Below, one piece after another: positions 1-17,339 of a stretch of 17,615 bases of DNA. The stretch is taken from IMG/VR virus record IMGVR_UViG_3300045988_126837. One strand, 5' to 3'. Position 1 is the stretch's first letter; every line of letters begins with the position of its first letter. The notes beneath the pieces were generated by a model, which was not told the DNA's origin, made no database searches, and saw nothing but the letters and a program-made list of their open reading frames with translations. The position numbers were made by a program, and so were the translations under genes. The DNA is from a virus.

Positions 1-25
1 GAGTGGTATTTCATTTCAACTTCGA
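1..25. repeat. Left inverted terminal repeat (25 bp perfect: GAGTGGTATTTCATTTCAACTTCGA)
   Basis: The reverse complement of 17591-17615 is identical to 1-25. Similarity continues imperfectly to about position 39 (9 of the next 14 positions match). Confidence 0.95.
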
Positions 26-205: not shown

Positions 206-340
206 ATGTACAAGAAAGTTATAGTGGACGAGTTGGGTTACACAATGTATGAGTGTTGTTATTTAACACAAATGCAGATTGAAGCAATATTAATGCATCA
301 TCCAGAATGGTCAATTAAATGTGTTCAAACGTATGCATAA
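206..340 (+). CDS. Hypothetical early protein, 44 aa (MYKKVIVDELGYTMYECCYL...), below the ORF-track cutoff
   Basis: The ATG is preceded by GAGAGG at about 7 nt spacing. It is the first ORF after P1 and is open to the TAA at 338-340. Confidence 0.5.
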   Translation: MYKKVIVDELGYTMYECCYLTQMQIEAILMHHPEWSIKCVQTYA

Positions 341-362
341 GAAAGTGTGGGAGGGGGATAAA

Positions 363-560
363 ATGAGTGATTTTCTGTATACCACTAAAGGATATGCAAT
401 TGAAGTGTGTTGTATTAGACAGACAGTAATGGGAGATGTCGCTTGTTGTGTTTTTTATGATAAAAGTAAATGGTTAAAAATTAGAAAAAACGATAAAGGG
501 GATTATATTGAAGTAAGACATCAAGGCAAATATTATGGTAGATGTTATTTATTTAATTAG
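363..560 (+). CDS. Hypothetical early protein, 65 aa (track ORF 321..560 trimmed to ATG 363)
   Basis: GGAGGGGG SD lies 4-6 nt upstream of ATG 363. The track start at 321 is a GTG inside the previous ORF. No recognisable motif. Confidence 0.6.
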   Translation: MSDFLYTTKGYAIEVCCIRQTVMGDVACCVFYDKSKWLKIRKNDKGDYIEVRHQGKYYGRCYLFN

Positions 561-573
561 TCACAAGGTGTAT

Positions 574-592
574 CGCATGTTCGAATCATGCG
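574..592 (+). other. GC-rich hairpin mimicking a tRNA T-arm (CGCATG-TTCGAAT-CATGCG)
   Basis: A 6-bp stem carries the 7-nt loop TTCGAAT, closed by a G:C pair, in an 84-nt intergenic spacer. A second hairpin, CGGTC/GGCCG, lies at 602-617. Function unknown. Confidence 0.4.
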
Positions 593-644
593 GGTTGCAC
601 TCGGTCTATAAGGGCCGTTATAAGAAAAAAGGGAGGAATAAATT

Positions 645-965
645 ATGACAAGAAAAGAGATTCAGAAACAGGAAAATATGTTGGTAGAGAAAGCGTGGAA
701 ACTAGCAAAGCCAGTTTGGTTCAGTCAATCAATAGAAGTAGATGAATCAGAACGTTTAAACAGATGTCAAGCTTTCTGGTATAAAACAGGTGGGTATGTC
801 TTTCTGGTAAGCTATAATACATGCGTTGCTTTTATAGACAACAAGGGCAACATGTATGATATTCTTAGACTAGTTTACGGATATACAGCAACATCCGCAA
901 AACACATAGCAAAATTCAGAAACAAGTTTAGCCATGTGTCAGAGCACACATGGAGAGAGGTATGA
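645..965 (+). CDS. Hypothetical early protein, 106 aa
   Basis: GGGAGG SD lies 8 nt upstream of the ATG. The coding-like composition is clean and the stop overlaps the next start (ATGA). No family recognised. Confidence 0.75.
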   Translation: MTRKEIQKQENMLVEKAWKLAKPVWFSQSIEVDESERLNRCQAFWYKTGGYVFLVSYNTCVAFIDNKGNMYDILRLVYGYTATSAKHIAKFRNKFSHVSEHTWREV

Positions 966-1060
966 TTTTTGCAGGCCTGTCAATAGCAGGCCTTGCAATA
1001 ATAATATTATTAGTAGCTGAGATAATAGCTCAGTTGCTATTTCGAGAGGATGAAGAATGA
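962..1060 (+). CDS. Small single-pass membrane peptide, 32 aa (MIFAGLSIAGLAIIILLVAEIIAQLLFREDEE)
   Basis: ATGA overlaps occur at both ends (962-965 with the upstream stop, 1057-1060 with the downstream start), so the ORF exactly bridges two genes. It has a hydrophobic core and an acidic tail. Not in the ORF track. Confidence 0.4.
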   Translation: MIFAGLSIAGLAIIILLVAEIIAQLLFREDEE

Positions 1061-1269
1061 TGTATGTATCAAAAGCTATGTTGGGTGATTTAGAGATGCC
1101 ATTTCAGCACCCACTAGAAATAGTAGGGTGTGACGAATTTAATTTGTATCTGGCCGACCCTATGAAAAGGATTGGTGAACTCCCTTATATTATAGCTTTA
1201 TCAAAAGATTGGAGATTTGTTGAAGCATCGACAGGGAGGAATGTTCTATTTGAATATAGAATAGACTAG
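1057..1269 (+). CDS. Hypothetical early protein, 70 aa
   Basis: GAGAGGA SD lies upstream and the gene is translationally coupled to the preceding ORF. No family recognised. Confidence 0.7.
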   Translation: MMYVSKAMLGDLEMPFQHPLEIVGCDEFNLYLADPMKRIGELPYIIALSKDWRFVEASTGRNVLFEYRID

Positions 1270-1353
1270 AACATTCGTTTGCTGGACGAATATGTGCGAG
1301 GTTAGTTATATCTAACCATCGTGCAAAATGAATAAAATTTTTTCTAAAAGCTG

Positions 1354-1382
1354 TTGACATTTCAGTACAACAGTGATATAAT
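1354..1382 (+). promoter_or_regulatory. Strong early promoter P2: -35 TTGACA, 17-bp spacer, extended -10 TGaTATAAT
   Basis: Both hexamers are perfect consensus (1354-1359 and 1377-1382) and TG lies at 1374-1375. Confidence 0.75.
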
Positions 1383-1387
1383 AAATA

Positions 1388-1530
1388 ATGTAAAGAGAAA
1401 CCGACAAGCTCTTTACATCTCTCCTCCTTTCTTACACATAGAAAGGTTGACAGACAGGTTGCGGAAACACTTCCGACGGGTTCGACTCCCGTCCTGTCAA
1501 TTCGTCGACGGACGTTAAACGAATAAAAAG
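1388..1530 (+). ncRNA. Structured leader / candidate small RNA with a miniature tRNA-like three-way junction (core 1448-1500)
   Basis: There is no + strand ORF between 1270 and 1554. Successive helices are 1388-1418, 1426-1446, the junction 1453-1498 (which includes T-arm ACGGG-TTCGACT-CCCGT at 1476-1492 stacked on an acceptor-like stem) and 1500-1524. The RNA boundaries are approximate. Confidence 0.45.
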
Positions 1531-1554
1531 CAAACAAACAAGGAGGCCTAAACA

Positions 1555-1839
1555 ATGGCAAGAAAGAGAATGGTTACTCGTACCATTACGAGTACAAAAG
1601 CGAAAGCGACAGTTTACAACATTGAGAAAGACGAGATTCAGACACTTGAATACAAGCTGTCAGGAGAACTTTCAGCAGATGATGCGCTGAAAGCAATCAC
1701 AAAAGAGCATACAGAGGTACGTCCTATGAAAGTAACTGAAGTAACAGTACATGAAGAGCTGTATGGCATGACAGAAGAAAAGTTTTTGGAATTAGCCGAA
1801 ATTCTCCCATCGCGAGCAAAAGCTCAGTCGGAAGAATAA
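1555..1839 (+). CDS. Early protein, 94 aa. Possible dsDNA-binding protein, the positional analogue of phi29 p6 (synteny only)
   Basis: AAGGAGG SD lies 8 nt upstream. The N-terminus is basic (MARKRMVTRT). It is the first gene of the order small protein - small protein - TP - DNAP, as in phi29 genes 6-5-(4)-3-2. Confidence 0.3.
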   Translation: MARKRMVTRTITSTKAKATVYNIEKDEIQTLEYKLSGELSADDALKAITKEHTEVRPMKVTEVTVHEELYGMTEEKFLELAEILPSRAKAQSEE

Positions 1840-1909
1840 TGTAACCAGTTAATAGATTTGTTTTATGTTTACACGATACAACACACAAAAAAGAAAGGAA
1901 AATTAGAAT

Positions 1910-2272
1910 ATGATTAAAGTAATGGGACAGACAAGAGAATTTACACCTGTAGAAAGATATCTTTTAACAGTTGCACCTACAATTAGAACTGTGAAATCAC
2001 TTAATGATGGCGATGTTATCGATGTTGCAGGTTACCTTGAATTTATTGACGAAAAAGAGGATGGTACAACAACCGAACTTATGTCAATCATCACGACAGA
2101 CCATGCTGTATTCAGTACTCAGTCAGTAACCTTTAAGCGAAGCATTAAAGACATTGAAACTGCTATGCAGGGTTGTTTCCCATTCCCTGTCAAGAAAATC
2201 ACTGGCCAGTCAAAAGCAGGTCGTGACTACGTGGATTGCGTACTTGACATTGACAGCTTAAAAGTAGAATGA
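1910..2272 (+). CDS. Early protein, 120 aa. Possible ssDNA-binding protein, the positional and size analogue of phi29 p5 (124 aa)
   Basis: AAAGGAAAA SD-like sequence lies upstream, and the gene sits just upstream of the TP/DNAP pair. The assignment rests on synteny and size only. A terminator hairpin follows. Confidence 0.3.
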   Translation: MIKVMGQTREFTPVERYLLTVAPTIRTVKSLNDGDVIDVAGYLEFIDEKEDGTTTELMSIITTDHAVFSTQSVTFKRSIKDIETAMQGCFPFPVKKITGQSKAGRDYVDCVLDIDSLKVE

Positions 2273-2313
2273 AATTGCATTTTTAAGTAACAAAAGCAAA
2301 TTAAATAAGCATA

Positions 2314-2350
2314 GGCGCTCACGATATACAGTGGGCGTCATTCTTACTTA
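2314..2350 (+). terminator. Intrinsic terminator candidate
   Basis: GGCGCTCAC (2314-2322) pairs with GTGGGCGTC (2331-2339), giving 9 bp including 2 G:U. The loop is 8 nt and a T-rich tail ATTCTTACTTATTT follows. Confidence 0.55.
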
Positions 2351-2354
2351 TTTA

Positions 2355-2372
2355 ATGTTTCACGTGAAACAT
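2355..2372. repeat. 18-bp perfect palindrome ATGTTTCACGTGAAACAT, copy 1 (operator-like)
   Basis: It is self-complementary over all 18 bp and identical to 6914-6931. It lies 16 nt upstream of the TP candidate's start codon. Confidence 0.9.
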
Positions 2373-2388
2373 AAGGCAGGTGTTCAAA

Positions 2389-3096
2389 ATGGCTAAAAAA
2401 TTAACCGCTTATGAGCGAGAGCGAAACAGAATAAAACGTCTTGAGCGCAAGCTTAAAAAGCAAGGCGTTCAATATGTTCCAACAAATATACCAACGCTCA
2501 AACAGATTAAAGCAAAAGGTTTTAAAGGAAAAGCTTTAAGAGCTTATGTTAATAAGTTAAAAAAGATTGACATTGAAGCTATTAAAGCAGAAGCATATAT
2601 TCCTCATGAAGAAGATATAGCATTTAGTAACTTTAATGATGAATTTCTTGCAAAGTATGGTTCATTCACACCAGAAGAGGAGGACTTATTTTACGGATAT
2701 AATGGTGCTACAGCTGAAGAAATTGAGCGGGAGCGCAAAAGAAAAGAAGCAGAATATCAAAAAGCGGCTACAGATTTCACATCTTCATTAGACAAATCTG
2801 TTGATTTGAACAGAAGCAGGAGAAAAGAAGCAATTTCATATTCAAGAAGTATGCAGTCTTTCCTGCTGAATATGATTAATGACATCGGTACGTCAGAGGT
2901 CGGAAGAAGGCTAGTTGAAGCGTCCAGAACTATGAATGATATAGACGTTATAGTTTCAGCCGTGTTGTGGGGTTCATCAGTTGCAGTCATAAACCAAGCA
3001 ACGGATGAACTGTTATCAATAATCAACGGAGCACCATTATCATTTGAAGAAAAAGTGCATGCTGAAATGATGAACGAATCAGAAAACGGGTGGTGA
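2389..3096 (+). CDS. Candidate terminal protein (replication primer), 235 aa
   Basis: It lies immediately upstream of the protein-primed DNA polymerase and is coupled to it. Its size is in the TP range (phi29 TP is 266 aa). The N-terminus is very basic (KKLTAYERERNRIKRLERKLKKQG). AAGGCAGG SD precedes ATG 2389; the track start at 2380 is a GTG. No sequence homology was verified. Confidence 0.55.
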   Translation: MAKKLTAYERERNRIKRLERKLKKQGVQYVPTNIPTLKQIKAKGFKGKALRAYVNKLKKIDIEAIKAEAYIPHEEDIAFSNFNDEFLAKYGSFTPEEEDLFYGYNGATAEEIERERKRKEAEYQKAATDFTSSLDKSVDLNRSRRKEAISYSRSMQSFLLNMINDIGTSEVGRRLVEASRTMNDIDVIVSAVLWGSSVAVINQATDELLSIINGAPLSFEEKVHAEMMNESENGW

Positions 3097-3100
3097 TAGT

Positions 3101-5071
3101 ATGGCAAGGCCTAAAAAAGTAAAGTATCTGGTCGGGGACTTTGAAACGACAGTCTATGAGGGTCAGAAAAATACAGAGGTTTGGGCATCTGCCATTGTAG
3201 AAATGTTTACAGAAGATGTTTCTATATTACAGTCAATCGACGAAACATGGGAATATTTAAGCAGTTTAAAATCTAATCTGATAGTTTATTTTCACAATCT
3301 AAAATTTGACGGTAATTTTTGGATATCGTTTTTTCTGAATAAATTACGCCTAAAACAAGCATATACAGGGGATGGTGTTAATTCTTGTGAATGGTATCAC
3401 GATAAAGATATGTACAATAATACATTCAAGTACACGATATCAGAAATGGGACAATGGTACACCATCAAAGTCAAAGTAAACAATAAGGTTATAGAATTTA
3501 GGGATTCATTGAAGCTTCTGCCATTCTCTGTTGAAGAGATAGGAAAAGCCTTTAAAACAAAACATCAGAAACTTGACATGGAATATACTGGTTTTCGTTA
3601 TGCAGGTTGTAAGATTAAACCAAAGGAAAAAAAGTACATAGCTAACGATGTTCTTGTTGTTAAAGAAGCATTAGAGATTGTTTTTCGAGAAGGGCATAAT
3701 AGACTAACAATAGGCAGTTGTTGTCTTGCTGAATATAAGCAAATAGTTGGAAAAGATGAATGGAAAAGAAGATTTCCAGACGTTACACAAATAGAACTAG
3801 ATTCTGATACATACGGTAAGTCAAACGTTGACGCCTACATAAGAAAGTCATATAGAGGGGGTTGGTGTTATCTAGTAAAAGGTAAAGAAAATCAGATATA
3901 TACTAACGGAACTACTGCGGATGTAAATTCTCTGTATCCGTCTATGATGCACTCTATGTCGGGCAATAGATACCCTGTTGGAAAGCCGATGTTCTGGTCT
4001 GGTAACTTTATTCCAGACAGAGCCTTACAAAACAACATGTATTTCTTTATTAGGATAAAAACAAAATTTTACTTGAGAAGTGGAAAATTGCCTTTTATCC
4101 AGATAAAGGGGAACATGCTATATAAAGGCACAGAGTCGTTACAAACATCTGATGTGTTTGACAAAGCTACAGGTAAGTATTACGACAAATACATTGATAT
4201 TGATGGTAAAGAATGTGATACAAGAGTAGAACTTACACTTACCATGACAGATTATTTTCTTATACTTGAACATTATGAACTTGTTGACTTTGAGATTCTG
4301 GATGGGTGTTACTTTTATTCAGAAATAGGGATATTTGACGAATATATTGATAAATATGCAAAAATAAAAATGACTAGCAAAGGTGCTAGACGCACGCTTG
4401 CAAAATTATTTTTAAATAATTTGTATGGTAAAATGGCTTCATCGACAGATTCTTCATTCAAATTAGCATATGTTAAAGATGATAACTCAATAGGGTTTAT
4501 CAATATTACCGCGAAAGACAAAGAGGCTGGTTATATTCCAGTGGGTTCTGCTATTACTAGCTATGCCAGAAACTTTACAATAAGAGCCGCACAAGCAAAC
4601 TATTATGGAGTTGAAGAACACGGTTTTATTTATGCTGATACAGATAGCATTCACTGTGACTTACCACCAGAACAGATTACAGGCATTAAAGTCCATGAAA
4701 CTGATTTTTGTGCATGGAAACTAGAATCCTGCTGGGATAGAGCTATTTTTGCAAGGCAGAAAACATACATCGAACATGTAACGCATGAAGATTTGCAGAA
4801 GATTGAAGAACCGTACAACAACATTAAGTGTGCAGGAATGCCTCAGAGATGCAAAGACTTGTTTGAATTGTCGATGTCTGGAAAAGCTGTGTATGCTGAT
4901 TACAAAGAAAATACAGCAGTTAACAGATTTCTTTTCAATCAAGTTACACATGAACCTATCGTTAGAACATTTGACGATTTTAAAATAGGTTTAAATGTAC
5001 CATGTAAATTAATTCCAAAAAGAATAGACGGGGGTGTTTTACTTGTTGAATCAACGTACCAAATGCGGTAA
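3101..5071 (+). CDS. Protein-primed family-B DNA polymerase (phi29 gp2-like)
   Basis: Motifs seen: ExoI DFETT, ExoII HNLKFDGNF, ExoIII YIANDV, motif A DVNSLYPS, motif B KLFLNNLYGK, motif C YADTDS and KxY (QKTYI). The 656-aa length is consistent with TPR insertions. Confidence 0.97.
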   Translation: MARPKKVKYLVGDFETTVYEGQKNTEVWASAIVEMFTEDVSILQSIDETWEYLSSLKSNLIVYFHNLKFDGNFWISFFLNKLRLKQAYTGDGVNSCEWYHDKDMYNNTFKYTISEMGQWYTIKVKVNNKVIEFRDSLKLLPFSVEEIGKAFKTKHQKLDMEYTGFRYAGCKIKPKEKKYIANDVLVVKEALEIVFREGHNRLTIGSCCLAEYKQIVGKDEWKRRFPDVTQIELDSDTYGKSNVDAYIRKSYRGGWCYLVKGKENQIYTNGTTADVNSLYPSMMHSMSGNRYPVGKPMFWSGNFIPDRALQNNMYFFIRIKTKFYLRSGKLPFIQIKGNMLYKGTESLQTSDVFDKATGKYYDKYIDIDGKECDTRVELTLTMTDYFLILEHYELVDFEILDGCYFYSEIGIFDEYIDKYAKIKMTSKGARRTLAKLFLNNLYGKMASSTDSSFKLAYVKDDNSIGFINITAKDKEAGYIPVGSAITSYARNFTIRAAQANYYGVEEHGFIYADTDSIHCDLPPEQITGIKVHETDFCAWKLESCWDRAIFARQKTYIEHVTHEDLQKIEEPYNNIKCAGMPQRCKDLFELSMSGKAVYADYKENTAVNRFLFNQVTHEPIVRTFDDFKIGLNVPCKLIPKRIDGGVLLVESTYQMR

Positions 5072-5105
5072 ATCAGATAGCCAAATAAGAAAAGATATTT
5101 ACACT

Positions 5106-5318
5106 ATGCTAGATGAAGATTACAACGAATACATTAGAGTATATGATGCAAAGCAGGCGTTACTTGCAATTAAGCGCGCAATAAGGATGAACAAGTTGGA
5201 AAATGCTTTAAAAATATTGATGAATTCATACGCGTATTATGAAGCAGATTTATTTTATAAAGCGTTTGTAGAAAAATATATTAATGTATTAAGGAGTGAA
5301 TTGTATGAAAAAAATTAA
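5106..5318 (+). CDS. Hypothetical helical protein, 70 aa (track ORF 5034..5318 trimmed to the first ATG)
   Basis: The track start at 5034 is a GTG inside the polymerase gene. ATG 5106 lies after the polymerase stop, but its SD is weak, so the start is uncertain. Confidence 0.5.
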   Translation: MLDEDYNEYIRVYDAKQALLAIKRAIRMNKLENALKILMNSYAYYEADLFYKAFVEKYINVLRSELYEKN

Positions 5319-5745
5319 AGTGTTGGCAAAGAATCATGGATATTTTAATTCAGTTCTTCCAGAAAAATATGCGTTGGGTGATTGGATTGATTTAAAAGCA
5401 GGTAAAACAATGCATATTAGAAAAGGTGAATACGTTAATATACCGTTGGGTGTAGCTATGAAACTACCAAGAGGATATGAAGCACACATATTGCCAAGAT
5501 CGTCCACTTTTAGAAAACATCATATATTAATGGCTAATAGCATGGGAATTATTGACAATTCATATTCTGGTAGAAATGACGAATGGTGCTTTCCTGCATA
5601 TGCTGTTGAAGATACAGTAATAACAAGAGGCGATAGGATTGCACAGTTTAGGGTTGTAAGAAATCAGCCAGAAATTGAACTGGTTGAAGTGGAAGATTTA
5701 ACAGATAGTGACAGAAATGGTTTTGGTTCAAGTGGGGTGAGATAA
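5305..5745 (+). CDS. dut: Trimeric dUTP pyrophosphatase (dUTPase)
   Basis: All five motifs are recognisable, including PRSS, GIIDNSYSG, DRIAQ and the C-terminal RNGFGSSG. AAGGAG SD (5291-5296) lies 8 nt before ATG 5305. Confidence 0.92.
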   Translation: MKKIKVLAKNHGYFNSVLPEKYALGDWIDLKAGKTMHIRKGEYVNIPLGVAMKLPRGYEAHILPRSSTFRKHHILMANSMGIIDNSYSGRNDEWCFPAYAVEDTVITRGDRIAQFRVVRNQPEIELVEVEDLTDSDRNGFGSSGVR

Positions 5746-5900
5746 TGCGACAAATAGTTTTTGGTATGAGTGACTACGAAACAAAAAAATTCACACTCGA
5801 TTGGTACACAGCTTGCAGGAATATACGAAAAGCTAAAAAAGTTCCTTATTTTAAAAATAGAAAAAGTTCACAGGGTGTTAATTATTCGTATAAATGGTAG
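5745..5900 (+). CDS. Hypothetical basic protein, 51 aa (MRQIVFGMSDYETKKFTLDWY...)
   Basis: A TAATG overlap joins it to the dut stop, and GGGGTGA SD lies upstream. Not in the ORF track. Confidence 0.5.
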   Translation: MRQIVFGMSDYETKKFTLDWYTACRNIRKAKKVPYFKNRKSSQGVNYSYKW

Positions 5901-5910
5901 GTGAAAAAAA

Positions 5911-6081
5911 TTGCTTAAAAAATTTGTGTTTATTAGCGTTTTAGTTTTAATATTACTGTTTCTTGTCTTTCTGTTATATTTACTTACTTTAAGACCAGAT
6001 ATGATATTGATTATTGGCATATCTGGTGTAATAGTGATATGGTGGACTATTGTGCTCATAATGTTATATTTAAGGATGTGA
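5911..6081 (+). CDS. Small membrane protein with two predicted TM helices, 56 aa, TTG start
   Basis: AGGTGA SD (5899-5904) lies 6 nt before TTG 5911. Two hydrophobic stretches (FVFISVLVLILLFLVFLLYLL and MILIIGISGVIVIWWTIVLIMLYL) are separated by TLRPD. Confidence 0.45.
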   Translation: MLKKFVFISVLVLILLFLVFLLYLLTLRPDMILIIGISGVIVIWWTIVLIMLYLRM

Positions 6082-6085
6082 TAAT

Positions 6086-6262
6086 ATGAAAGCACCCTGT
6101 AAAGATTGTGACAAAAGATGTTTAAATTGTCATTCAGCTTGTGAAGAATACTTTCAATACAGGCGTGAAATAATGAAAGTGTCTGTCGCTGAGTACAATG
6201 ATTCAAACCATAAGGCATACGTTAGTGAAGCACGCCAGAGAATGAAGAAAAGAAAGAGGTAA
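6086..6262 (+). CDS. Cysteine-rich small protein, 58 aa, putative zinc-binding (CxxCx3CxxCHx2C) with a basic C-terminus
   Basis: AAGGATG SD lies 7 nt upstream. The sequence is MKAPCKDCDKRCLNCHSACEEYFQYRRE...RQRMKKRKR. Not in the ORF track. Confidence 0.55.
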   Translation: MKAPCKDCDKRCLNCHSACEEYFQYRREIMKVSVAEYNDSNHKAYVSEARQRMKKRKR

Positions 6263-6265
6263 AAT

Positions 6266-6370
6266 ATGACACTATATGATTTAACTAAGGTTTTTAAATT
6301 CAAGCACAAAAGTAATGATTTATGTAAGAAAACAGATTGGCAATATAGTTGTTGTCTTACATACAAATGA
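6266..6370 (+). CDS. Possible 34-aa ORF (MTLYDLTKVFKFKHKSNDLCKK...)
   Basis: It has a good SD (AAGAGG, 6 nt spacing), but it overlaps the 6315..6515 ORF by 56 nt in another frame, so only one of the two may be real. Confidence 0.3.
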   Translation: MTLYDLTKVFKFKHKSNDLCKKTDWQYSCCLTYK

Positions 6371-6515
6371 TATTAGCAAAGACGAATTATTTGGCTTGTG
6401 TGTTGCAAGCAACAAATTAAATGACGCAGAAATTCTTATGCTAATGGCTAAAGACGATTGTGTTCACGTCGGAATAGGTGAAATAGTTGTAAACAGTAAT
6501 ACAAGAATTATATAA
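6315..6515 (+). CDS. Hypothetical protein, 66 aa
   Basis: The ORF has a protein-like sequence pattern but no convincing SD before ATG 6315. Confidence 0.45.
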   Translation: MIYVRKQIGNIVVVLHTNDISKDELFGLCVASNKLNDAEILMLMAKDDCVHVGIGEIVVNSNTRII

Positions 6516-6533
6516 AAGTTAGGAGAAATAAAC

Positions 6534-6752
6534 ATGGATATTGAAAATAACAATAAGAGTAACAAGATTCTGGTAGACTTTTTAGCAATTAAAGTAAATA
6601 ATATAGACAATAGGCCTTACTATACTATAATATATCATCCTGTTAATAGTGAAAACTCTTATGAGGGGTATGGCAGTTATAGCCTATACCTTGTCAATGA
6701 ATGGATGGGAGAACATTTTATTAAAAAAGAGTTCGGTGATATAAATGACTAA
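6534..6752 (+). CDS. Hypothetical protein, 72 aa
   Basis: AGGAG SD lies 8 nt upstream of the ATG. No family recognised. Confidence 0.7.
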   Translation: MDIENNNKSNKILVDFLAIKVNNIDNRPYYTIIYHPVNSENSYEGYGSYSLYLVNEWMGEHFIKKEFGDIND

Positions 6753-6879
6753 TATACTCAATTTGTTTTTTGTACTTGTTATGATATCAGCCATAAGTGC
6801 CAGACTGTTCAATGAATTAACGTTATTTTTTATAATGTGCGTTTATTCGCTACTTTTGTGCATGACATTAGCAAATTAA
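6745..6879 (+). CDS. Small hydrophobic (about two TM) peptide, 44 aa (MTNILNLFFVLVMISAISARLF...)
   Basis: An ATGACTAA overlap joins it to the upstream stop, and GGTGA SD lies 5 nt upstream. It is the last + strand ORF before the terminator. Not in the ORF track. Confidence 0.4.
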   Translation: MTNILNLFFVLVMISAISARLFNELTLFFIMCVYSLLLCMTLAN

Positions 6880-6913: not shown

Positions 6914-6931
6914 ATGTTTCACGTGAAACAT
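6914..6931. repeat. 18-bp perfect palindrome ATGTTTCACGTGAAACAT, copy 2
   Basis: It is identical to 2355-2372. It lies 4 nt from the terminator stem and overlaps the last base of the appendage gene's stop codon. Confidence 0.9.
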
Positions 6932-8613
6932 TAATTTATAAAATCGCCGTAATTTAAAATAGTTTTAACAATATTTGTACTAGCTGTCTTTGTGAATTCT
7001 TTGCCAGAGGCCGCACACATAAACAATCTTAAATTAGTTGTGTCAAAAACAGTCTGATTAAAAACGCCCTGTAAATAAGAATATCTAATAAGTACGTCGT
7101 TTGAATATGACTTTATCATATTAGGTGAACTCCCGTCCTCATTAACAATTTCACAAAATTGTACTACAATGCCGTCACACTCATTTGCAATGTAAAGCGT
7201 GTGACTATCACAAATAATATGATTATCTGTAACATACGCATTAGGACTTTTTTTAATATAAAGGCCGTACAAATCGGTATTTGTAGTTTTACCAAGGCCC
7301 CCACATCTTATGTCATTACTATTTAATTTACATTCTTTTACATTATCGATTTTTACAGCAATATAATTACTTTCAATCATGTTGTTATTAATATTGCATT
7401 TTGTAATTGTTCTTCCCCCTGAATTACCAACAAAAATACCAATGCTTGATGAAATAGTATAACGGTCTGTGTTAGTCATTGACTTTTTTAATGTGTTTTG
7501 AGATATAACAATCCCACTAATATCACGATTAATGAAATTAGTGTCGATTGCTATGTAGTTATCCTCACAATCCTCAATAATGTTACCAACAATACTTATT
7601 GCGTCACCAATGACAAAGATTGCGTCTCTATTACTGTTTCTTATTTTGCAATTTGACACTGTTACATTGTCGCAATCATTTAGCTGAATTGACATAGCTG
7701 TTGCGTTTTCAAAAATACAGTTTTCTATTAAAATGTTATTGTACTTATTTCCAGAAATTGTGTCAATAATTGGTCTGCCATTTGATGACGGTCTATCATA
7801 TGTGTGTTTATTTACTTTTTGTCCTGCATTATTCATACCACCATCAAATTTGACATTATTAAATACACAGTTATCACCAGAAACTTTAATTAACCCATCG
7901 TTAGGGTCGCTTGAAACGTCTATAATGAGCGAATGTAAGCACGAAAAGTTACCATTTATGATTGTGTCACCCATAACAGTAAGTGGTGAGCTGAAACCGT
8001 ATTTTTTGTTTGGCGTGAATGAAACGCATTTACACGTATTCAACAGGTTTTTTAAACCTGTAGTATCATCACTATCATTACCTTTACATCCAAACTGCTC
8101 TGGTCTACCAGAATCACCAACAAAATAAGCAAAAAGGCCATTTAATAATGGTATATTGTAACCTGAATTAACATCTAATATAAGATAAGTAGCGTTACCA
8201 TTGTCGTTTACAGTATAATAGCCAGAAGTAATTACAATGTCATTTAAAGAAATATCCATATCGTTAACCATTTCTAACACTGTAACACACTTTACTGCCC
8301 TTTTATTTACACTTTTGTTTAACTTAGAAAAAATAACGTTGTTAATCAAATCAGCTAAAGTTCCATCTTGTGCCATTTCATCAAGCTTTTTATCAATCAT
8401 TTTTTGAATGTCTAAACTATCAAAATAGTGATTAACATATTCAATAAGTTCATTAATTGTGTCGCCAAGCTCATTGCTTTTTTCAATGACTTTATTCAAC
8501 AGCTCATAATAACTTAATTCATCCCCGTACACCTGCGGTAAAACAGGAATCGTGTGGTTGCACCATTCTCTAAAATTTCTAGGCTTAAAACTCATATATT
8601 GAATCACTCCCAT
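6931..8613 (-). CDS. Tail appendage / receptor-binding protein with a right-handed parallel beta-helix (phi29 gp12 position; possible glycan depolymerase)
   Basis: It is the last gene of the late operon, after the lower collar. Repetitive beta-helix rungs are visible (NCIFENATAMSIQLNDCDNVTVSNCKIRNSNRDAIFV, IVGNIIEDCEDNYIAID, NINNNMIESNYIAVKIDN). The N-terminal ~100 aa form a helical anchor. An alternative start exists at 8595. Confidence 0.7.
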   Translation of the reverse strand: MGVIQYMSFKPRNFREWCNHTIPVLPQVYGDELSYYELLNKVIEKSNELGDTINELIEYVNHYFDSLDIQKMIDKKLDEMAQDGTLADLINNVIFSKLNKSVNKRAVKCVTVLEMVNDMDISLNDIVITSGYYTVNDNGNATYLILDVNSGYNIPLLNGLFAYFVGDSGRPEQFGCKGNDSDDTTGLKNLLNTCKCVSFTPNKKYGFSSPLTVMGDTIINGNFSCLHSLIIDVSSDPNDGLIKVSGDNCVFNNVKFDGGMNNAGQKVNKHTYDRPSSNGRPIIDTISGNKYNNILIENCIFENATAMSIQLNDCDNVTVSNCKIRNSNRDAIFVIGDAISIVGNIIEDCEDNYIAIDTNFINRDISGIVISQNTLKKSMTNTDRYTISSSIGIFVGNSGGRTITKCNINNNMIESNYIAVKIDNVKECKLNSNDIRCGGLGKTTNTDLYGLYIKKSPNAYVTDNHIICDSHTLYIANECDGIVVQFCEIVNEDGSSPNMIKSYSNDVLIRYSYLQGVFNQTVFDTTNLRLFMCAASGKEFTKTASTNIVKTILNYGDFIN

Positions 8614-9344
8614 ATATCCCAGATTTGCATAAATAAATCTTCAAGTTCACAAATTAACATATCGTCAATGTTTTTCATCTTTTCGATGTATTCATTTACC
8701 ATGCTAATATAAGTTATCGTACCCTCTTTTCCCCATCTATGTTCTGCATACTCTTCTGTACTCTTTGCATTTGTGTCACTGTTGCTCTTACTGTTGCTAC
8801 TGCTATTCGTGTTGCTGTTTACAGCTTGTGTTGTATCACTAAGTGTTGCATCACTCATATATTCGTTAGCTTCAAGGTCCTCTAAACTGCCTTGAGGTGT
8901 ATCACTGTGTCTAATCTTTGCACTAGCTGTTGTGTTTGTTGTTGTGCTAGAATTCGCTGTGATATCTGTGTTGTCATTAACTTTTGTGTCAGCATTTCTA
9001 CCTATATTATGTTCGACATTCATATCAACGTTATAAATAACAGGGATATCAATGTTAATCGCTTTATAAAGCTTGTTGTAATACGGCATAATCACTGATA
9101 GTTTAGCGTCAAGTCTTAACTGCCACAACCCAAACGTTTCGCACCCAATTTCTCTGGTATAAAAATGTTTAAGTATCTTTGTCTCAAGTACAGACCTATA
9201 ACTTTCGTCAAATAATTCAAAAGGCGGAAAGATTCTGTTTCTTGACTTTTCAATGACTTCATTAACATTTGAATAGCCAACCGATTTGTTAAGGCCTGCA
9301 AGTGATTCACAGATATATCTTACTTCTGTTGTGTATCTACTCAT
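8604..9344 (-). CDS. Lower collar protein (phi29 gp11 position), 246 aa, with an internal N/S/T-rich low-complexity segment
   Basis: It lies between the connector and the appendage. AGAGAGGTGA SD lies upstream. The low-complexity run NSNTNSSSNSKSNSDTNAKS is encoded by GTTGCT-type repeats at about 8770-8825. Confidence 0.55.
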   Translation of the reverse strand: MSRYTTEVRYICESLAGLNKSVGYSNVNEVIEKSRNRIFPPFELFDESYRSVLETKILKHFYTREIGCETFGLWQLRLDAKLSVIMPYYNKLYKAINIDIPVIYNVDMNVEHNIGRNADTKVNDNTDITANSSTTTNTTASAKIRHSDTPQGSLEDLEANEYMSDATLSDTTQAVNSNTNSSSNSKSNSDTNAKSTEEYAEHRWGKEGTITYISMVNEYIEKMKNIDDMLICELEDLFMQIWDIWE

Positions 9345-9348
9345 GTTA

Positions 9349-10266
9349 TCACCTCTCTATAACAGAAGTGCCTAAACTAGCTACTTTCATACCACTAATA
9401 AATTCTTCTCGATTTCCCTCATCTGTTTCCTTGTCAGGCTCGTCACCCTCATCAAAAACCCATGTTACATCAAGGCCAAACCTTTCTTTAATCTGTTCAC
9501 TTGCGTAATCTCTGGCCATCGTTCTTGAGCGTCTGTTAGCAAGAGCATCAGCATTAGCTGTGTCTACTTCGGATTTCACCATTCTTTCTTTTTTCTGTAC
9601 AATAACAGATGTGATGCCAAGCAGTGCGTTTCCTCTGTTGTAAAGCGTCTGCTGTACTTCCATCAACTGAGGTGCTACCAGTGGAGCGCCAAGCTTTAAT
9701 GCTTTAATATCTTTTAAGGACAAATTATCGCCAACTGCTAAGTATGGATTGTCAGCGTCAACACCTGCCAGAAGATTTTTAAAAGACAATCGCTCATTTT
9801 CCGAACATTGTACAATAACAGGTGTTTTCTGCGCTACACAGTTTGTGTCTATTGTTCCGTCAATTCTCCACAATCTATACGCCAATTCAATGTAAGAATT
9901 GTACATATTTGTTCTAAGCATGTTATCCCAAATGATAACAAATTCGCCCTTGTTTAGCTCCCTCTGATATCCTGTCCAAGGATTCCAAACACGTATTTTT
10001 GTCGGATTTCCATAACAGTCATATGTACCAAGACACGAGTACTGCATGCAGGCATATTCGTCTGCATCCGAATCATAAAAGAAAGCAATAGAACCAAGCT
10101 CAAAAAGCTTTAACGCTAACCATCGTGAGTCTATTTCTTTTGGCAATCCCTCTACACGATAAGAGGCTACAGCATTGCTTGCAAACTTAATCAACCAATG
10201 ATTATATTGAATACCAGAAGAGTACACCCTTTTGAAAAATCTTCGTTTACTTCTACTTCTCCCCAT
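9349..10266 (-). CDS. Head-tail connector / upper collar (portal), phi29 gp10-like
   Basis: The segments AQKTPVIVQCSENERLSFKNLL and VQKKERMVKSEVD resemble phi29 gp10 [21 protein letters not shown] and KKERMVTDEV (recalled from memory). The N-terminus is basic (MGRSRSKRRFFKR), like the gp10 RKR pRNA-binding end. AAGGTGGTGG SD precedes ATG 10266; the track start at 10278 is a GTG. Confidence 0.85.
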   Translation of the reverse strand: MGRSRSKRRFFKRVYSSGIQYNHWLIKFASNAVASYRVEGLPKEIDSRWLALKLFELGSIAFFYDSDADEYACMQYSCLGTYDCYGNPTKIRVWNPWTGYQRELNKGEFVIIWDNMLRTNMYNSYIELAYRLWRIDGTIDTNCVAQKTPVIVQCSENERLSFKNLLAGVDADNPYLAVGDNLSLKDIKALKLGAPLVAPQLMEVQQTLYNRGNALLGITSVIVQKKERMVKSEVDTANADALANRRSRTMARDYASEQIKERFGLDVTWVFDEGDEPDKETDEGNREEFISGMKVASLGTSVIER

Positions 10267-10279
10267 TTTTACCACCACC

Positions 10280-11866: not shown

Positions 11867-11882
11867 TAAGTCACTCTCCTAT

Positions 11883-13268: not shown

Positions 13269-13283
13269 ATAAAAATCACTCCT

Positions 13284-13568
13284 TTATTTATTCTCACCGT
13301 ATAACACGGTATCAATAGTTAACTTTTTCATTTCATCCTCTGGGTCTGGATCTAGCTCTGGTGGCATTGGTGGCTGAGGTGGACCGCCCTCTTTGAATCT
13401 TGCTGTATATCTTTCTCGCCATTCCTTGTCATTGTCAACGTACTTCTGATGCCAATCCTCACCGTCATCAATACCATCATCGTTGATTGTTTCTAAAATG
13501 CTGATAGCATCATCATCTGTTCTGTCACCAACAAATGCTAATAATGCATCTTTTGTTGCCTGTTTCAT
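13284..13568 (-). CDS. Scaffolding protein candidate (phi29 gp7 position), 94 aa, very acidic
   Basis: It lies immediately upstream of the capsid gene, its size matches gp7 (98 aa), and it is D/E-rich with a proline-rich linker. AGAGGTGGT SD lies upstream. Confidence 0.55.
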   Translation of the reverse strand: MKQATKDALLAFVGDRTDDDAISILETINDDGIDDGEDWHQKYVDNDKEWRERYTARFKEGGPPQPPMPPELDPDPEDEMKKLTIDTVLYGENK

Positions 13569-13569
13569 G

Positions 13570-14670: not shown

Positions 14671-14924
14671 TAACAATCACCACCTAACAATGACTCCCAC
14701 ATTTTTGGACCACAGGAAGAATCATTGTGGCCATTTGTACCACATTCAATTCTATAAGCTCGCATCATGCTCTGATATGAATTGATTGCAAAGATTGTGT
14801 TGTTACCTGCATTACCATCGATTGACAAAGGTTTTCCGTTTTGTCCGATGAAGCCCTGTGAACGTAAGATAGCTTGAAGTGCGACTACATGAGTACCTTT
14901 TGAGTTGAGAATTACTGTTTTCAT
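14670..14924 (-). CDS. Stand-alone peptidoglycan-binding (PG_binding_1-like) protein, 84 aa
   Basis: The pattern KGTHVVALQAILRSQGF...SIDGNAGNNTIFAINSYQ...GPKMWESLL fits the G..V..LQ..L...G...DG.fG..T..Av..fQ...G..tw..L consensus. It is translationally coupled on both sides. Confidence 0.6.
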   Translation of the reverse strand: MKTVILNSKGTHVVALQAILRSQGFIGQNGKPLSIDGNAGNNTIFAINSYQSMMRAYRIECGTNGHNDSSCGPKMWESLLGGDC

Positions 14925-15529: not shown

Positions 15530-15547
15530 TGTTAATCCCCCCCCTCT

Positions 15548-16159: not shown

Positions 16160-16186
16160 ATATAGAGAAAGTAGGTGACATACACA

Positions 16187-17221: not shown

Positions 17222-17339
17222 GGTATCACCAAGTGCTAACATTAATGTATACAGTTAGAAAAGCAACGTTGAAAGATACGCTAACTAGTATGTTGGTAAA
17301 TTGCAAACCGCTTTAATGTACCACTTGTAAATGATATAT

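What the first reader, a model, noticed from the sequence alone, without database searches (positions are those of the whole stretch)
1383..1554. Consensus promoter drives an ORF-free, highly structured RNA containing a miniature tRNA-like three-way junction
Seen in sequence: TTGACA-17-TGaTATAAT (1354-1382) is one of only two perfect-consensus promoters in the genome, yet the next + strand start codon is at 1555 and 1270-1554 has no + strand ORF. By eye, the ~165 nt fold into consecutive helices. H1 is 1388-1397/1409-1418 (10 bp). H2 is CCTTTCT/AGAAAGG at 1426-1432/1440-1446. A closed three-way junction follows. Its closing helix is GACAGG/CCTGTC at 1453-1458/1493-1498, with an alternative register TGACAG at 1448-1453/1494-1499. 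One arm is the hairpin CGGAA-ACAC-TTCCG (1462-1475). The other arm is ACGGG-TTCGACT-CCCGT (1476-1492), a textbook tRNA T-arm: 5-bp stem, 7-nt TTCGAnn loop, G:C closing pair as in G53:C61. It abuts the acceptor-like strand directly, followed by an unpaired A. H4 is ATTCGT/ACGAAT at 1500-1505/1519-1524. The junction is far more GC-rich than its surroundings. Inference: this is an acceptor/T-arm minihelix mimic with no D-arm and no anticodon loop. It could be a substrate or decoy for RNase P, RNase Z, the CCA-adding enzyme or T-loop enzymes. It could be a decoy for tRNA-targeting host defence nucleases, or a processing signal that releases a 5' small RNA from the downstream mRNA. It could also be the (so far unidentified) packaging RNA of this phage, whose phi29 counterpart is also built on a three-way junction. 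I am not aware of such an element being described in phi29-like phages.
Basis: partly seen in the sequence, partly recalled or inferred. Interest (0 to 1): 0.75.

Follow-up and report, generated by a model that had tools for sequence, protein, structure and literature searches.

The report
tRNA-like module in phage mRNA leader
The untranslated leader of this gut phi29-like phage's early replication operon carries a conserved miniature copy of the "top half" of a tRNA, most likely a cutting signal for the host's tRNA-trimming enzymes rather than the phage's packaging RNA.

Summary
A 12/12 consensus promoter (1354-1382) drives a roughly 165-nt non-coding leader that folds better than all 200 shuffles (z = -3.9). 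It contains a three-way junction with a textbook T-arm (1476-1492).

Comparison with about 75 related phage contigs, and with the cultured Clostridium phage CS229P2, shows what is under selection. It is a tRNA top half: an acceptor-like stem abutting a T-arm, 11-13 bp in all. It carries the GGTTCRANYCC T-loop motif, and the stems covary.

The element is never followed by CCA. It is almost always followed by A, then a U within 2 nt, then a hairpin 2-4 nt further on. The D/anticodon side is freely variable, and no copy is a decoding tRNA. A second copy lies at 560-617.

Best reading (inferred, about 0.5): a processing cassette like the plant-mitochondrial t-elements. Host RNase P and RNase Z would cut it, leaving the p6-like/SSB/TP/polymerase mRNA with a hairpin close to its 5' end.

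Two details of the finding are corrected. The conserved acceptor register is 1448-1454/1493-1499. The conserved H4 is CGUC/GACG (1503-1506/1511-1514).

The packaging-RNA idea is not supported. A far better candidate, with 17 covarying pairs, lies directly after the packaging ATPase gene (17222-17338).

The parts
1354..1382 (+). Sigma-70-type consensus promoter: TTGACA, 17-nt spacer, TG-extended TATAAT. The transcription start is probably near 1388-1390.
   Evidence: 12/12 match. Conserved in 26 clade-1 relatives and in clade 2. The start position is inferred from spacing only.
1388..1418 (+). P1: a hairpin at or very near the 5' end of the transcript. The conserved 8 bp are GUAAAGAG/CUCUUUAC at 1390-1397/1409-1416; the window has 10 bp.
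   Evidence: Present in the MFE. 97% of cells are paired in 27 sequences, with little variation. A homologous hairpin exists in clade 2.
1426..1446 (+). P2: hairpin CCUUUCU/AGAAAGG. Its 5' arm is part of a pyrimidine tract, UCUCUCCUCCUUUCU (1418-1432), that resembles an anti-Shine-Dalgarno sequence.
   Evidence: Present in the MFE. 85.6% of cells are paired. Five relatives have a different sequence that still folds into a hairpin.
1448..1454 (+). Acceptor-like stem, 5' strand (UGACAGA; UGACAGG in most relatives). The putative RNase P site is between 1447 and 1448.
   Evidence: Pairs with 1493-1499. 96.3% of cells are paired. The seventh pair is GC in 14 sequences and GU in 11, which points to an RNA on this strand.
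1455..1461 (+). Junction linker with invariant G1457 and G1458, a candidate mimic of D-loop G18/G19.
   Evidence: The GG is invariant in 27 sequences while its neighbours vary. Related elements carry GGUGUA in the same place. The tertiary contact with the T-loop is inferred.
1462..1475 (+). Variable arm: hairpin CGGAA-ACAC-UUCCG. Relatives have a 3-nt loop shifted by one base. The sequence is not conserved across clades.
   Evidence: L018 replaces it with a different small hairpin. Other clades have anything from no arm to three arms here.
1476..1492 (+). T-arm mimic: 5-bp stem ACGGG/CCCGU with the 7-nt loop UUCGACU. It contains the GGTTCRANYCC motif.
   Evidence: 100% of cells are paired. C-G changes to U-A in 2 loci and A-U to G-C in 1. 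Other clades use AAAGG, ACAGG, GUGGG, AGGGG and AUAGG stems, all paired. Chance expectation is 0.0025 per genome.
1493..1499 (+). Acceptor-like stem, 3' strand (CCUGUCA). It abuts the T-arm directly, giving a 12-bp stack.
1500..1502 (+). Discriminator-like A1500 followed by U1501 and U1502. No CCA is encoded. The putative RNase Z site is after 1500.
   Evidence: A followed by UU (or CU) occurs after the acceptor strand in nearly all copies in all clades. Its relevance rests on PMC10100781.
1503..1514 (+). P4: hairpin CGUC-GACG-GACG, starting 2 nt after the putative RNase Z cut.
   Evidence: 99% of cells are paired. U-A changes to C-G in 7 loci. An equivalent covarying hairpin lies 2-4 nt after A-UU in most other copies; CS229P2 differs.
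1540..1557 (+). Shine-Dalgarno AAGGAGG (1540-1546) and the start codon (1555-1557) of the p6-like dsDNA-binding protein gene (1555-1839). This is the first gene of the replication operon.
   Evidence: phrog_6370, E = 1.3e-11. DNA polymerase at 3101-5071 matches phrog_1907, E = 5e-131.
560..617 (+). Second copy of the same kind of module (E1), between ORF 321-560 and ORF 645-965. It consists of a closing helix GUCAC/GUUGC (560-564/594-598, one mismatch in the window), a linker AAGGUGUA, a 7-bp T-arm with loop UUCGAAU (573-593), A599, C600 and U601, then a hairpin at 602-617.
   Evidence: Relatives have GCCAC/GUGGC closing helices and T-stems CCGCAGG, CCGUAGG and CCGAAGG, all paired.

Best explanation
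**What it is.** The element is a mimic of the tRNA 'top half': an acceptor stem stacked on a T-arm, with a D-loop-like GG to form the elbow. It is embedded in the 5' leader of the early replication operon (p6-like protein, SSB-like ORF, terminal protein, DNA polymerase).

**Proposed mechanism.** It works as a processing cassette, like the t-elements of plant mitochondria.
1. The host's tRNA maturases recognise the elbow and the acceptor-T stack of about 12 bp.
2. RNase P cuts before U1448. This removes the 5' leader piece containing P1 and P2.
3. RNase Z cuts after the discriminator-like A1500. The UU at 1501-1502 would stimulate this cut, and the absence of CCA would permit it.
4. A mini-tRNA of about 53 nt is released (1448-1500).
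5. The mRNA is left with a 2-nt overhang followed by hairpin P4. That should protect it from 5'-end-dependent decay.
6. The second copy at 560-617 would punctuate the upstream early transcript in the same way.

**Shown:** the structure, its conservation and covariation, and the flanking syntax.

**Inferred:** the cleavages, the enzymes responsible, and the stabilising effect.
For: **Structure.**
- The fold beats all 200 shuffles.
- The strict T-arm motif is expected 0.0025 times per genome.
- In 27 clade-1 sequences, 94.3% of cells are paired; the T-arm is 100% paired with 2 covarying pairs, and 12 cells show double changes against 3.8 in shuffles.

**The same module sits upstream of the p6-like gene in other phages.**
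- Clade 2: 41 of 41 loci, where p6 is about 42% identical.
- Clade 3: 2 of 14 loci.
- The cultured Clostridium phage CS229P2.
- MT835814, where one copy precedes each of two p6 paralogues.

**Pattern of conservation.**
- T-stems differ but are always paired: ACGGG, AUGGG, GCGGG, AAAGG, ACAGG, GUGGG, AGGGG, AUAGG.
- Closing helices are unrelated in sequence: UGACAGG, CAGAUA/AAGAUA, GAAUAGG, UCCCGGA, GGACGGU.
- Only the top half is conserved, with a stack of 11-13 bp. The D/anticodon side ranges from nothing to three hairpins.
- This is what recognition by RNase P, RNase Z or the CCA enzyme would predict. All three measure the acceptor-T stack from the elbow (PMC4919913).

**tRNA likeness.** L141 passes the Rfam tRNA threshold (44.5 bits against 29), with a 58-nt insert in place of the anticodon loop.

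**3' syntax.**
- No copy encodes CCA.
- Nearly every copy has A, then U within 2 nt, then a covarying hairpin 2-4 nt later.
- In B. subtilis, a U no more than 2 nt after the discriminator stimulates RNase Z about 200-fold on CCA-less precursors (PMC10100781).

**RNA on this strand.** G.U pairs are frequent: GC in 14 and GU in 11 sequences at 1454:1493.

**Precedent.** t-elements carrying GGTTCRANYCC define mRNA 5' and 3' ends through RNase P and RNase Z (PMC1920247).
Against: - There are no transcript-end data; every cleavage is inferred.
- The stack length varies (11, 12 or 13 bp), whereas RNase P and RNase Z measure a fixed distance.
- P4 in the window's clade is only 4 bp, a weak protector.
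- A 5'-monophosphate end made by RNase Z would normally favour RNase J1 attack.
- Most clade-3 genomes lack the module at this position (12 of 14). It is therefore dispensable there, although L144 carries copies before other early genes.
- CS229P2 has only one U after the A, and a longer downstream structure.
- The host enzymes were not examined. The probable host is Lachnospiraceae, judged from the closest cultured relatives, the CS229P phages of Clostridium symbiosum (DNA polymerase 63% identical).
- Within clade 1 the covariation is modest because the sequences are close.
Confidence: 0.5

Rival explanations
1. The excised or embedded mini-tRNA is itself the functional product. It would be an abundant early small RNA that mimics the tRNA top half. 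It could titrate or mislead host factors that bind the acceptor/T-arm/CCA end, for example defence toxins that modify tRNA 3' ends, tRNA-modifying enzymes, or the CCA-adding enzyme.
For: - It is driven by one of only two consensus promoters, in the early region.
- Only the top half is conserved.
- Several copies occur per genome.
- Plant t-element RNAs and their like can accumulate as stable species with non-encoded C residues added (PMC1920247).
Against: - No identity elements are conserved in the acceptor stem; the sequences differ completely between clades.
- There is no anticodon loop, so anticodon nucleases are not addressed.
- The module always sits just upstream of a cistron and is followed by a hairpin. 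That syntax is explained by mRNA-end formation and is not needed for a decoy.
- It is absent from most clade-3 genomes at this site.
Confidence: 0.15
2. The tRNA-like fold acts in cis and is not cut out. It would be a compact 5' structure that blocks 5'-to-3' decay, or a platform that binds a phage or host protein to regulate translation of the p6-like gene. RNase P might cut, but RNase Z would not.
For: - The leader is highly structured.
- A pyrimidine tract at 1418-1432 can pair with the Shine-Dalgarno sequence in the MFE.
- 5' structures are known stabilisers in Bacillota (review PMC3997798).
Against: - The anti-SD/SD helix shows no covariation and is no better than shuffles.
- A generic stabiliser would not need an invariant T-loop motif, a stack of about 12 bp, or the A-U(U) context without CCA.
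- The same module also occurs between cistrons.
Confidence: 0.2
3. It is the phage's packaging RNA (pRNA), built on a three-way junction as in phi29.
For: - It has three-way-junction topology, lies behind a strong promoter, and the leader is about 170 nt long.
- The connector has a basic N-terminus, MGRSRSKRRFFKR, as expected for an RNA-binding portal.
Against: - No Rfam pRNA match even at E <= 10.
- The conserved core is a tRNA top half, whose closing helix is only 6-8 bp.
- The element is duplicated before unrelated early genes and is missing at this position in 12 of 14 clade-3 genomes.
- A 115-135-nt RNA directly after the packaging ATPase stop codon is present in every genome examined across all clades. 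It has a long terminal helix, and 17 of its 26 predicted pairs covary. It is the better pRNA candidate.
Confidence: 0.03
4. It is a decaying remnant of a tRNA gene with no present function.
For: - L141 and L143 look like a tRNA with an insert.
- The elements differ in how far they are reduced.
- They are present in some clade-3 genomes and absent from others.
Against: - The T-loop is invariant, and compensatory changes keep the T and acceptor helices paired across clades whose p6 proteins are only 36-45% identical.
- The conserved 3' syntax (A, U, hairpin) lies outside the tRNA-like part.
Confidence: 0.07

Closest known systems
t-elements of plant mitochondria: tRNA-like structures that direct RNase P and RNase Z cleavage to form mRNA ends (Forner et al. 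2007, PMC1920247)
   Same: - Non-decoding, non-canonical tRNA-like folds that contain the GGTTCRANYCC T-arm motif.
- They lie just upstream or downstream of protein-coding genes.
- An acceptor-like stem marks the boundaries.
- In some cases simple acceptor-like stem-loops suffice; compare MT835814 copy 1, which is a plain minihelix.
   Different: - This is a bacteriophage of Bacillota, not an organelle.
- The copies here are reduced further (a 53-nt three-way junction).
- They are coupled to a conserved downstream hairpin and to an A-U(U) context.
- Cleavage is not demonstrated here.
tRNA-like 3'-end or precursor processing modules: MALAT1/mascRNA, and the MHV68 tRNA-like/pre-miRNA (TMER) transcripts. 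Recalled from memory, not checked here.
   Same: - A tRNA-like fold embedded in a longer transcript recruits RNase P and/or RNase Z to separate functional RNAs.
- In the TMERs, the tRNA-like part is followed directly by hairpins that RNase Z releases.
   Different: - Those are eukaryotic nuclear systems.
- Their products are lncRNA 3' ends or miRNAs, not a bacterial-type polycistronic mRNA.
Canonical tRNA (Rfam RF00005)
   Same: - 7-bp acceptor stem, 5-bp T-stem with a G-C pair closing a UUCGAnU loop, and a discriminator A.
- The relative L141 passes the family threshold.
   Different: - The window's element has no D-stem and no anticodon arm.
- ARAGORN finds nothing.
- Its best Rfam score is 19.4 bits, on tRNA-Sec, below threshold.
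- The acceptor sequences are not conserved between clades.
phi29 prohead/packaging RNA (Rfam RF00044)
   Same: A three-way junction in a non-coding RNA of about 170 nt from a strong promoter in a phi29-like genome.
   Different: - No covariance-model match.
- The core is tRNA-like.
- It is not linked to packaging genes.
- A separate ATPase-linked structured RNA exists.
tRNA-like domain of tmRNA, and other bacterial RNase P substrates with partial tRNA shape, such as the C4 RNA precursor of phages P1/P7. Recalled from memory.
   Same: An acceptor/T-arm module with a reduced D region is recognised by tRNA enzymes.
   Different: - No tag reading frame and no G3:U70.
- ARAGORN finds no tmRNA.
- The element lies inside an mRNA leader.

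Membership tests
tRNA (RF00005) | Full cloverleaf with a D-arm and an anticodon arm bearing a 7-nt anticodon loop | tested here: not met
   ARAGORN finds 0 genes in the window and 0 in 49 related loci. The window's junction has one small hairpin with a 3-4-nt loop instead.
tRNA (RF00005) | Covariance-model score at or above the Rfam gathering threshold (29 bits) | tested here: not met
   For the window, nothing reaches gathering; the best score is tRNA-Sec at 19.4 bits, E = 1.4. The syntenic element in the relative L141 does pass (44.5 bits, E = 3e-6), with a 58-nt insert in the anticodon position.
tRNA top-half / minihelix mimic | T-arm: 5-bp stem closed by G-C, and a 7-nt UUCRANY loop (GGTTCRANYCC) | tested here: met
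   1476-1492. Invariant loop, 100% paired, covarying stems. Chance expectation is 0.0025 per genome.
tRNA top-half / minihelix mimic | Acceptor-like helix abutting the 3' strand of the T-stem, giving a coaxial stack of about 12 bp | tested here: met
   1448-1454/1493-1499 (7 + 5 = 12 bp). Other copies give 11-13 bp. The coaxial stacking itself is inferred.
tRNA top-half / minihelix mimic | Elbow: tertiary contact between the T-loop and D-loop-like G residues | not testable with these tools
   G1457 and G1458 are invariant in the linker, and a GGUGUA motif occurs in other copies. These observations are compatible with an elbow but do not demonstrate it.
t-element-like processing signal (RNase P / RNase Z) | tRNA-like fold with GGTTCRANYCC placed next to an mRNA boundary | tested here: met
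   The element lies 55 nt upstream of the p6-like start codon. A second copy lies between cistrons. The motif definition comes from PMC1920247.
t-element-like processing signal (RNase P / RNase Z) | 3' context suited to RNase Z: no encoded CCA, and a U within 2 nt of the discriminator | tested here: met
   A1500, U1501 and U1502 in the window. The same holds in nearly all copies. The criterion comes from PMC10100781 and PMC4919913.
t-element-like processing signal (RNase P / RNase Z) | Transcript ends coincide with the boundaries of the element, and RNase P and RNase Z cleave it | not testable with these tools
   No transcript data are available. This needs RACE or RNA-seq, or in-vitro cleavage assays.
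phi29-type pRNA (RF00044) | Match to the pRNA covariance model | tested here: not met
   No RF00044 hit at gathering threshold or at E <= 10 anywhere in the window.
phi29-type pRNA (RF00044) | Long 5'/3' terminal helix (ATPase-binding A-helix) closing a three-way junction, present in every member phage | tested here: not met
   The closing helix is only 6-8 bp. The element is absent at this site in 12 of 14 clade-3 genomes. An RNA with a long terminal helix lies at 17222-17338 instead.
phi29-type pRNA (RF00044) | Binding to the prohead connector and a requirement for DNA packaging | not testable with these tools
   Needs biochemistry.
tmRNA | tRNA-like domain plus a tag-peptide reading frame | tested here: not met
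   ARAGORN reports no tmRNA. There is no Rfam hit.

The most novel reading that the evidence does not exclude
The ~53-nt mini-tRNA released from the leader, and its sibling from 560-617, would be a functional early phage RNA in its own right. It would be a CCA-tailed mimic of the tRNA top half, made in large amounts from a consensus promoter. It would soak up host factors or defence toxins that act on the tRNA acceptor end or elbow. That would make it a new class of phage-encoded RNA anti-defence decoy, travelling as a mobile cassette between early genes.
Probability: 0.12. Interest if true: 0.85.

Novelty: new variant of a known kind. Interest (0 to 1): 0.55.

Why it matters
**If the processing model is right.** These small gut phages would use the host's tRNA-maturation machinery to punctuate and stabilise their early mRNAs. 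That strategy is established for organelles (tRNA punctuation, t-elements). As far as my literature searches show, it has not been described for phi29-like phages or for their Bacillota hosts.

**What it offers.**
- A compact, portable module of about 70 nt (tRNA top half, A-UU, hairpin). It could be tested as a defined mRNA-end-forming part in Bacillota.
- A natural series of minimal substrates, from a bare minihelix to a near-complete cloverleaf. These could be used to probe what RNase P and RNase Z of Clostridia require.

**Annotation.** It may explain why tRNA finders occasionally report 'tRNAs' in these phages.

**By-product.** The candidate packaging RNA outside the Bacillus phages may matter as much to the packaging-motor field.

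Tried and rejected
- **DNA similarity search.** blastn of 1200-1900 against GenBank phages found nothing. Relatives had to be reached through proteins.
- **Known RNA families.** Rfam at gathering threshold and at E <= 10 gave no family for the window's element: not tRNA, tmRNA, pRNA or T-box. The ctRNA and ncS16 hits are weak and on the wrong strand.
- **My own covariance model.** Model R1 gave hits at E of about 1e-3 next to the ATPase gene in clade 3. On inspection these were its P1 helix matching a bidirectional terminator, on the strand opposite the pRNA candidate, so I rejected them. Its weaker hits upstream of p6-like genes were real and led to the clade-2 and clade-3 elements.
- **Origin from a host tRNA.** An exact search of 185,579 bacterial and archaeal genomes for GGGTTCGACTCCCGTCCTGTCA found nothing.
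- **Coding explanations.** The ORFs on both strands are not conserved.
- **Anti-SD/SD sequestration helix (1420-1425/1541-1546).** No covariation, and no better than shuffles. Not adopted.
- **Loose T-arm pattern as evidence.** About 3 per genome by chance, so it is uninformative. Only the strict motif is significant.
- **More distant relatives.** MT835904 and MT836152 (polymerase 42-44% identical) have no such motif.
- **Loop-loop complementarity in the ATPase-linked RNA.** This is a pRNA hallmark. It was looked for by eye only, and none was obvious.
Full report
**What the window is.** The 17,615-bp window is a complete linear genome. About 25 nt at the two ends form an inverted terminal repeat (read directly). 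The genome belongs to a phi29-like podophage.

- Early genes lie on the + strand from 206 to 6879. They include a p6-like dsDNA-binding protein (1555-1839), an SSB-sized ORF (1910-2272), a terminal-protein-sized ORF (2380-3096), a protein-primed DNA polymerase (3101-5071) and a dUTPase.
- Late genes lie on the minus strand from 6931 to 16086: tail, collar, connector, capsid and holin.
- The packaging ATPase lies on the + strand at 16175-17221.
- The closest cultured relatives are the Clostridium symbiosum phages CS229P1-3, whose polymerase is 63% identical. Other relatives come from human faecal metagenomes.

**Checking the observation.** The core observation is confirmed.

- The promoter at 1354-1382 is a 12/12 consensus with a TG extension. 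It is one of only two such sites in the genome.
- The leader 1383-1554 folds to -48.5 kcal/mol against -32.9 +/- 4.1 for shuffles (z = -3.86, 0 of 200).
- The mechanical ORFs over the leader are not conserved. The + strand ORF starts at the TTG inside the -35 box, and a 123-aa ORF lies on the minus strand.
- The junction is 57.7% G+C in a 36.1% genome.
- ARAGORN finds no tRNA or tmRNA. Rfam finds no family; the best score is 19.4 bits on tRNA-Sec over 1447-1500.
- A loose T-arm pattern occurs about 3 times per genome by chance. The strict motif, GGTTCRANYCC inside a 5-bp stem, is expected 0.0025 times per genome, and 0.001 times with an abutting 6-bp helix.

**Close relatives (clade 1).** Twenty-six IMG/VR contigs have polymerases 92-98% identical to the window's, but their leaders are only 80-95% identical at the DNA level.

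- In the 27-sequence alignment, GGGTTCGACTCCC and TGTCAAT are invariant.
- The T-stem is paired in 100% of cells. C-G changes to U-A in two loci and A-U to G-C in one.
- Overall, 94.3% of cells are paired, against 38-52% when the partners are slid. Twelve cells show double changes, against 3.8 +/- 1.6 in shuffles.
- Two details of the finding need correcting.
  - The conserved acceptor-like helix is the 7-bp TGACAGG/CCTGTCA (1448-1454/1493-1499). The window carries an A.C mismatch at its inner end. The register 1453-1458/1493-1498 fails in four relatives.
  - The conserved 3' hairpin is CGUC/GACG (1503-1506/1511-1514), where U-A changes to C-G in seven loci. It is not ATTCGT/ACGAAT, which is broken in several relatives.
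- G1457 and G1458 in the junction linker are invariant while their neighbours vary.
- The pair 1454:1493 is G-C in 14 sequences and G.U in 11. That is meaningful only for an RNA on the + strand.

**Distant relatives.** Searches with the packaging ATPase brought in two further clades with different gene orders. Their ATPase is about 68-71% identical and their p6-like protein 36-45% identical.

- *Clade 2.* All 41 loci carry a T-arm about 100 nt upstream of the p6-like start codon, behind a homologous consensus promoter.
  - The T-arm is AAAGG-TTCGATT-CCTTT, or ACAGG/CCTGT in two loci.
  - The 6-bp closing helix is CAGATA/TATCTG, or AAGATA/TATCTT in one locus.
  - After a UU comes a D-arm-like CCGA...TCGG element.
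- *Clade 3.* Two of 14 loci have GTGGG-TTCGATT-CCCRC closed by GAATAGG/CCTATTC. One of them, L141, scores 44.5 bits on the Rfam tRNA model (threshold 29). It has a D-arm, and a 58-nt insert in place of the anticodon loop.
- *CS229P2 (cultured).* It has UCCCGGA...AGGGG-UUCGACU-CCCCU...UCCGGGA in the 173-nt gap before its p6-like gene.
- *MT835814.* It has two p6-like paralogues, each preceded by such an element. One is a four-way junction. The other is essentially a bare minihelix of about 11 bp.
- *Further copies before other early genes.* In the window this is 560-617, between ORF 321-560 and ORF 645-965. It has a 5-bp closing helix, a linker AAGGUGUA and a 7-bp T-arm. In relatives its stems covary: CCGCAGG, CCGUAGG, CCGAAGG. 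L144 has two such copies.
- ARAGORN calls no tRNA in any of these genomes.
- Two more distant faecal phages, with polymerase 42-44% identical, have no such motif.

**What is and is not conserved.**

- Conserved across all copies:
  - the T-loop motif and the G-C pairs next to the loop;
  - a helix abutting the 3' strand of the T-stem, so that the stack is 11-13 bp;
  - a purine-rich linker containing GG;
  - no CCA;
  - in nearly all copies, an A followed by UU (CU in the 560-617 type);
  - in most copies, a covarying hairpin starting 2-4 nt after that A.
- Not conserved:
  - the sequences of the helices;
  - everything on the D/anticodon side, which ranges from nothing to three hairpins.

This is the signature of selection for recognition by factors that read the tRNA top half and elbow. 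It is not the signature of decoding, aminoacylation identity, or anticodon-directed nucleases.

**Mechanism (inferred).** The following rests on published enzymology.

- RNase P binds the T-stem-loop/acceptor stack and measures a fixed distance from the elbow.
- RNase Z clamps the elbow, processes CCA-less precursors, and is blocked by CCA. The CCA enzyme measures the same stack (PMC4919913).
- In B. subtilis, a U no more than 2 nt downstream of the discriminator stimulates RNase Z about 200-fold (PMC10100781, citing Pellegrini 2012).
- In plant mitochondria, t-elements are non-canonical tRNA-like folds carrying GGTTCRANYCC. They define mRNA 5' and 3' ends through RNase P and RNase Z, and even simple acceptor-like stem-loops are proposed to work (PMC1920247).

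From this I propose the following.

- The module at 1448-1502 is a phage version of a t-element.
- RNase P would cut at 1447/1448 and RNase Z at 1500/1501.
- This would release a mini-tRNA of about 53 nt and leave the replication-operon mRNA beginning UU-hairpin (P4).
- A hairpin so close to the 5' end is a known type of stabiliser (literature reviewed in PMC3997798). The figure of a tolerated overhang of about 4 nt or less is from my memory.
- None of the cleavages is shown here, so I put this model at about 0.5.

**Rivals.**

- *Functional mini-tRNA or decoy, about 0.15.* It fits the strong early promoter and the multiple copies. It does not explain the constant position before a cistron or the downstream hairpin.
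- *Uncleaved cis-acting stabiliser or regulator, about 0.2.* It does not need a T-loop motif or the A-U(U) context. The tempting anti-SD/SD helix has no covariation.
- *Inert tRNA remnant, about 0.07.* It is contradicted by compensatory changes across clades.
- *Packaging RNA, about 0.03.* The evidence against it is given in the next paragraph.

**Why it is not the pRNA.** Directly after the ATPase stop codon, every genome examined in every clade, including CS229P2, has a 115-135-nt RNA followed by an intrinsic terminator.

- Its outer helix, GGUAUC/GAUAU, is invariant.
- The next helix segment is fully compensatory between groups: CAAGUG/CACUUG, CUAUCG/CGAUAG, CUACUG/CAGUAG, UUUUGU/ACAAAAG, CUCAUGU/ACAUGAG.
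- RNAalifold predicts 26 pairs, 17 of them with double changes.
- It moves with the ATPase gene when the genome order changes.
- In the window it is 17222-17338 (z = -3.1 including the terminator).
- It does not match Rfam pRNA, and I saw no obvious loop-loop complementarity. It is therefore a candidate, not a demonstrated pRNA.
- The connector's basic N-terminus, MGRSRSKRRFFKR, is compatible with an RNA-binding portal.
- A 2024 review states that pRNA is so far known only in Bacillus phi29-like phages (PMC11476376).

**Novelty.** Literature searches found no description of tRNA-like leader or intercistronic modules in phi29-like phages. The review notes only that some metagenomic relatives, in clusters that include the CS229P1 cluster, are 'predicted to encode tRNAs'. 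That could reflect elements like the one in L141. I class the finding as a new variant of a known kind: tRNA-like processing or punctuation elements. Interest is moderate (0.55). It would be higher if the mini-tRNA turns out to have a function of its own.

Noticed in passing
window 17222-17338 (+), terminator 17340-17383: A strongly covarying structured RNA starts 1 nt after the packaging-ATPase stop codon. It is present in every genome examined across all clades and in the cultured Clostridium phage CS229P2, and it moves with the ATPase gene when gene order changes. 17 of its 26 predicted pairs have compensatory changes. This is a candidate packaging RNA outside the Bacillus phages. It has no Rfam pRNA match, and loop-loop complementarity is not evident.
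   Followed up: partly
window 560-617 (+): A second tRNA top-half module lies between ORF 321-560 and ORF 645-965. It has a 5-bp closing helix (one mismatch in the window), a linker AAGGUGUA, a 7-bp T-arm with loop UUCGAAU, then A-CU and a hairpin at 602-617. Its stems covary in relatives.
   Followed up: partly
window 1-25 and 17591-17615: The two ends share an inverted terminal repeat of about 25 nt (GAGTGGTATTTCATTTCAACTTCGA). The window is therefore a complete linear genome, presumably capped by terminal protein.
   Followed up: no
window 2355-2372; also L172 just after the ATPase stop, L144 about 14520-14540 (-), and clade-2 terminator loops: The palindrome (A)TGTTTCACGTGAAACA(T) recurs in intergenic regions of several clades, sometimes inside terminator hairpins. 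It may be a shared operator or terminator motif.
   Followed up: no
window 1388-1393: AUG followed directly by UAA lies at or next to the predicted transcription start. AATAATGTAA is conserved in clades 1 and 2. It could be a leaderless start-stop, or simply part of the 5' arm of P1.
   Followed up: no
window 1418-1432 and 1440-1446: The pyrimidine tract UCUCUCCUCCUUUCU resembles the 3' end of 16S rRNA (an anti-SD sequence). It pairs either with the SD-like AGAAAGG in P2 or, in the MFE, with the real SD at 1541-1546. The long-range helix shows no covariation.
   Followed up: yes
window 9349-10278 (-): The connector protein has a very basic N-terminus (MGRSRSKRRFFKR). This resembles the RNA-binding N-terminus of the phi29 connector as I recall it, and suggests that this phage uses a prohead RNA.
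   Followed up: no
L173 (MT835814) about 1035-1075 and 2145-2245: This faecal phage has two p6-like paralogues (MARKRMVTRTV..., MARVPMVTRTI...). Each is preceded by its own tRNA-like element: one a bare minihelix, the other a four-way junction.
   Followed up: partly
L143/L141 versus L144 and 11 other clade-3 loci, in the leader upstream of the p6-like gene: The tRNA-like module is present in some genomes and absent from others. The flanks are shared, but the 118-nt module is replaced by about 85 nt of unrelated hairpins in most clade-3 genomes. L144 carries similar modules before other early genes (15537 and 16109, minus strand). The modules behave like exchangeable cassettes.
   Followed up: partly
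window 2314-2339 (+): A terminator-like hairpin follows the SSB-sized ORF and precedes the terminal-protein and polymerase genes. It could attenuate readthrough, so that the p6-like and SSB genes are expressed at higher levels than the replication enzymes.
   Followed up: no
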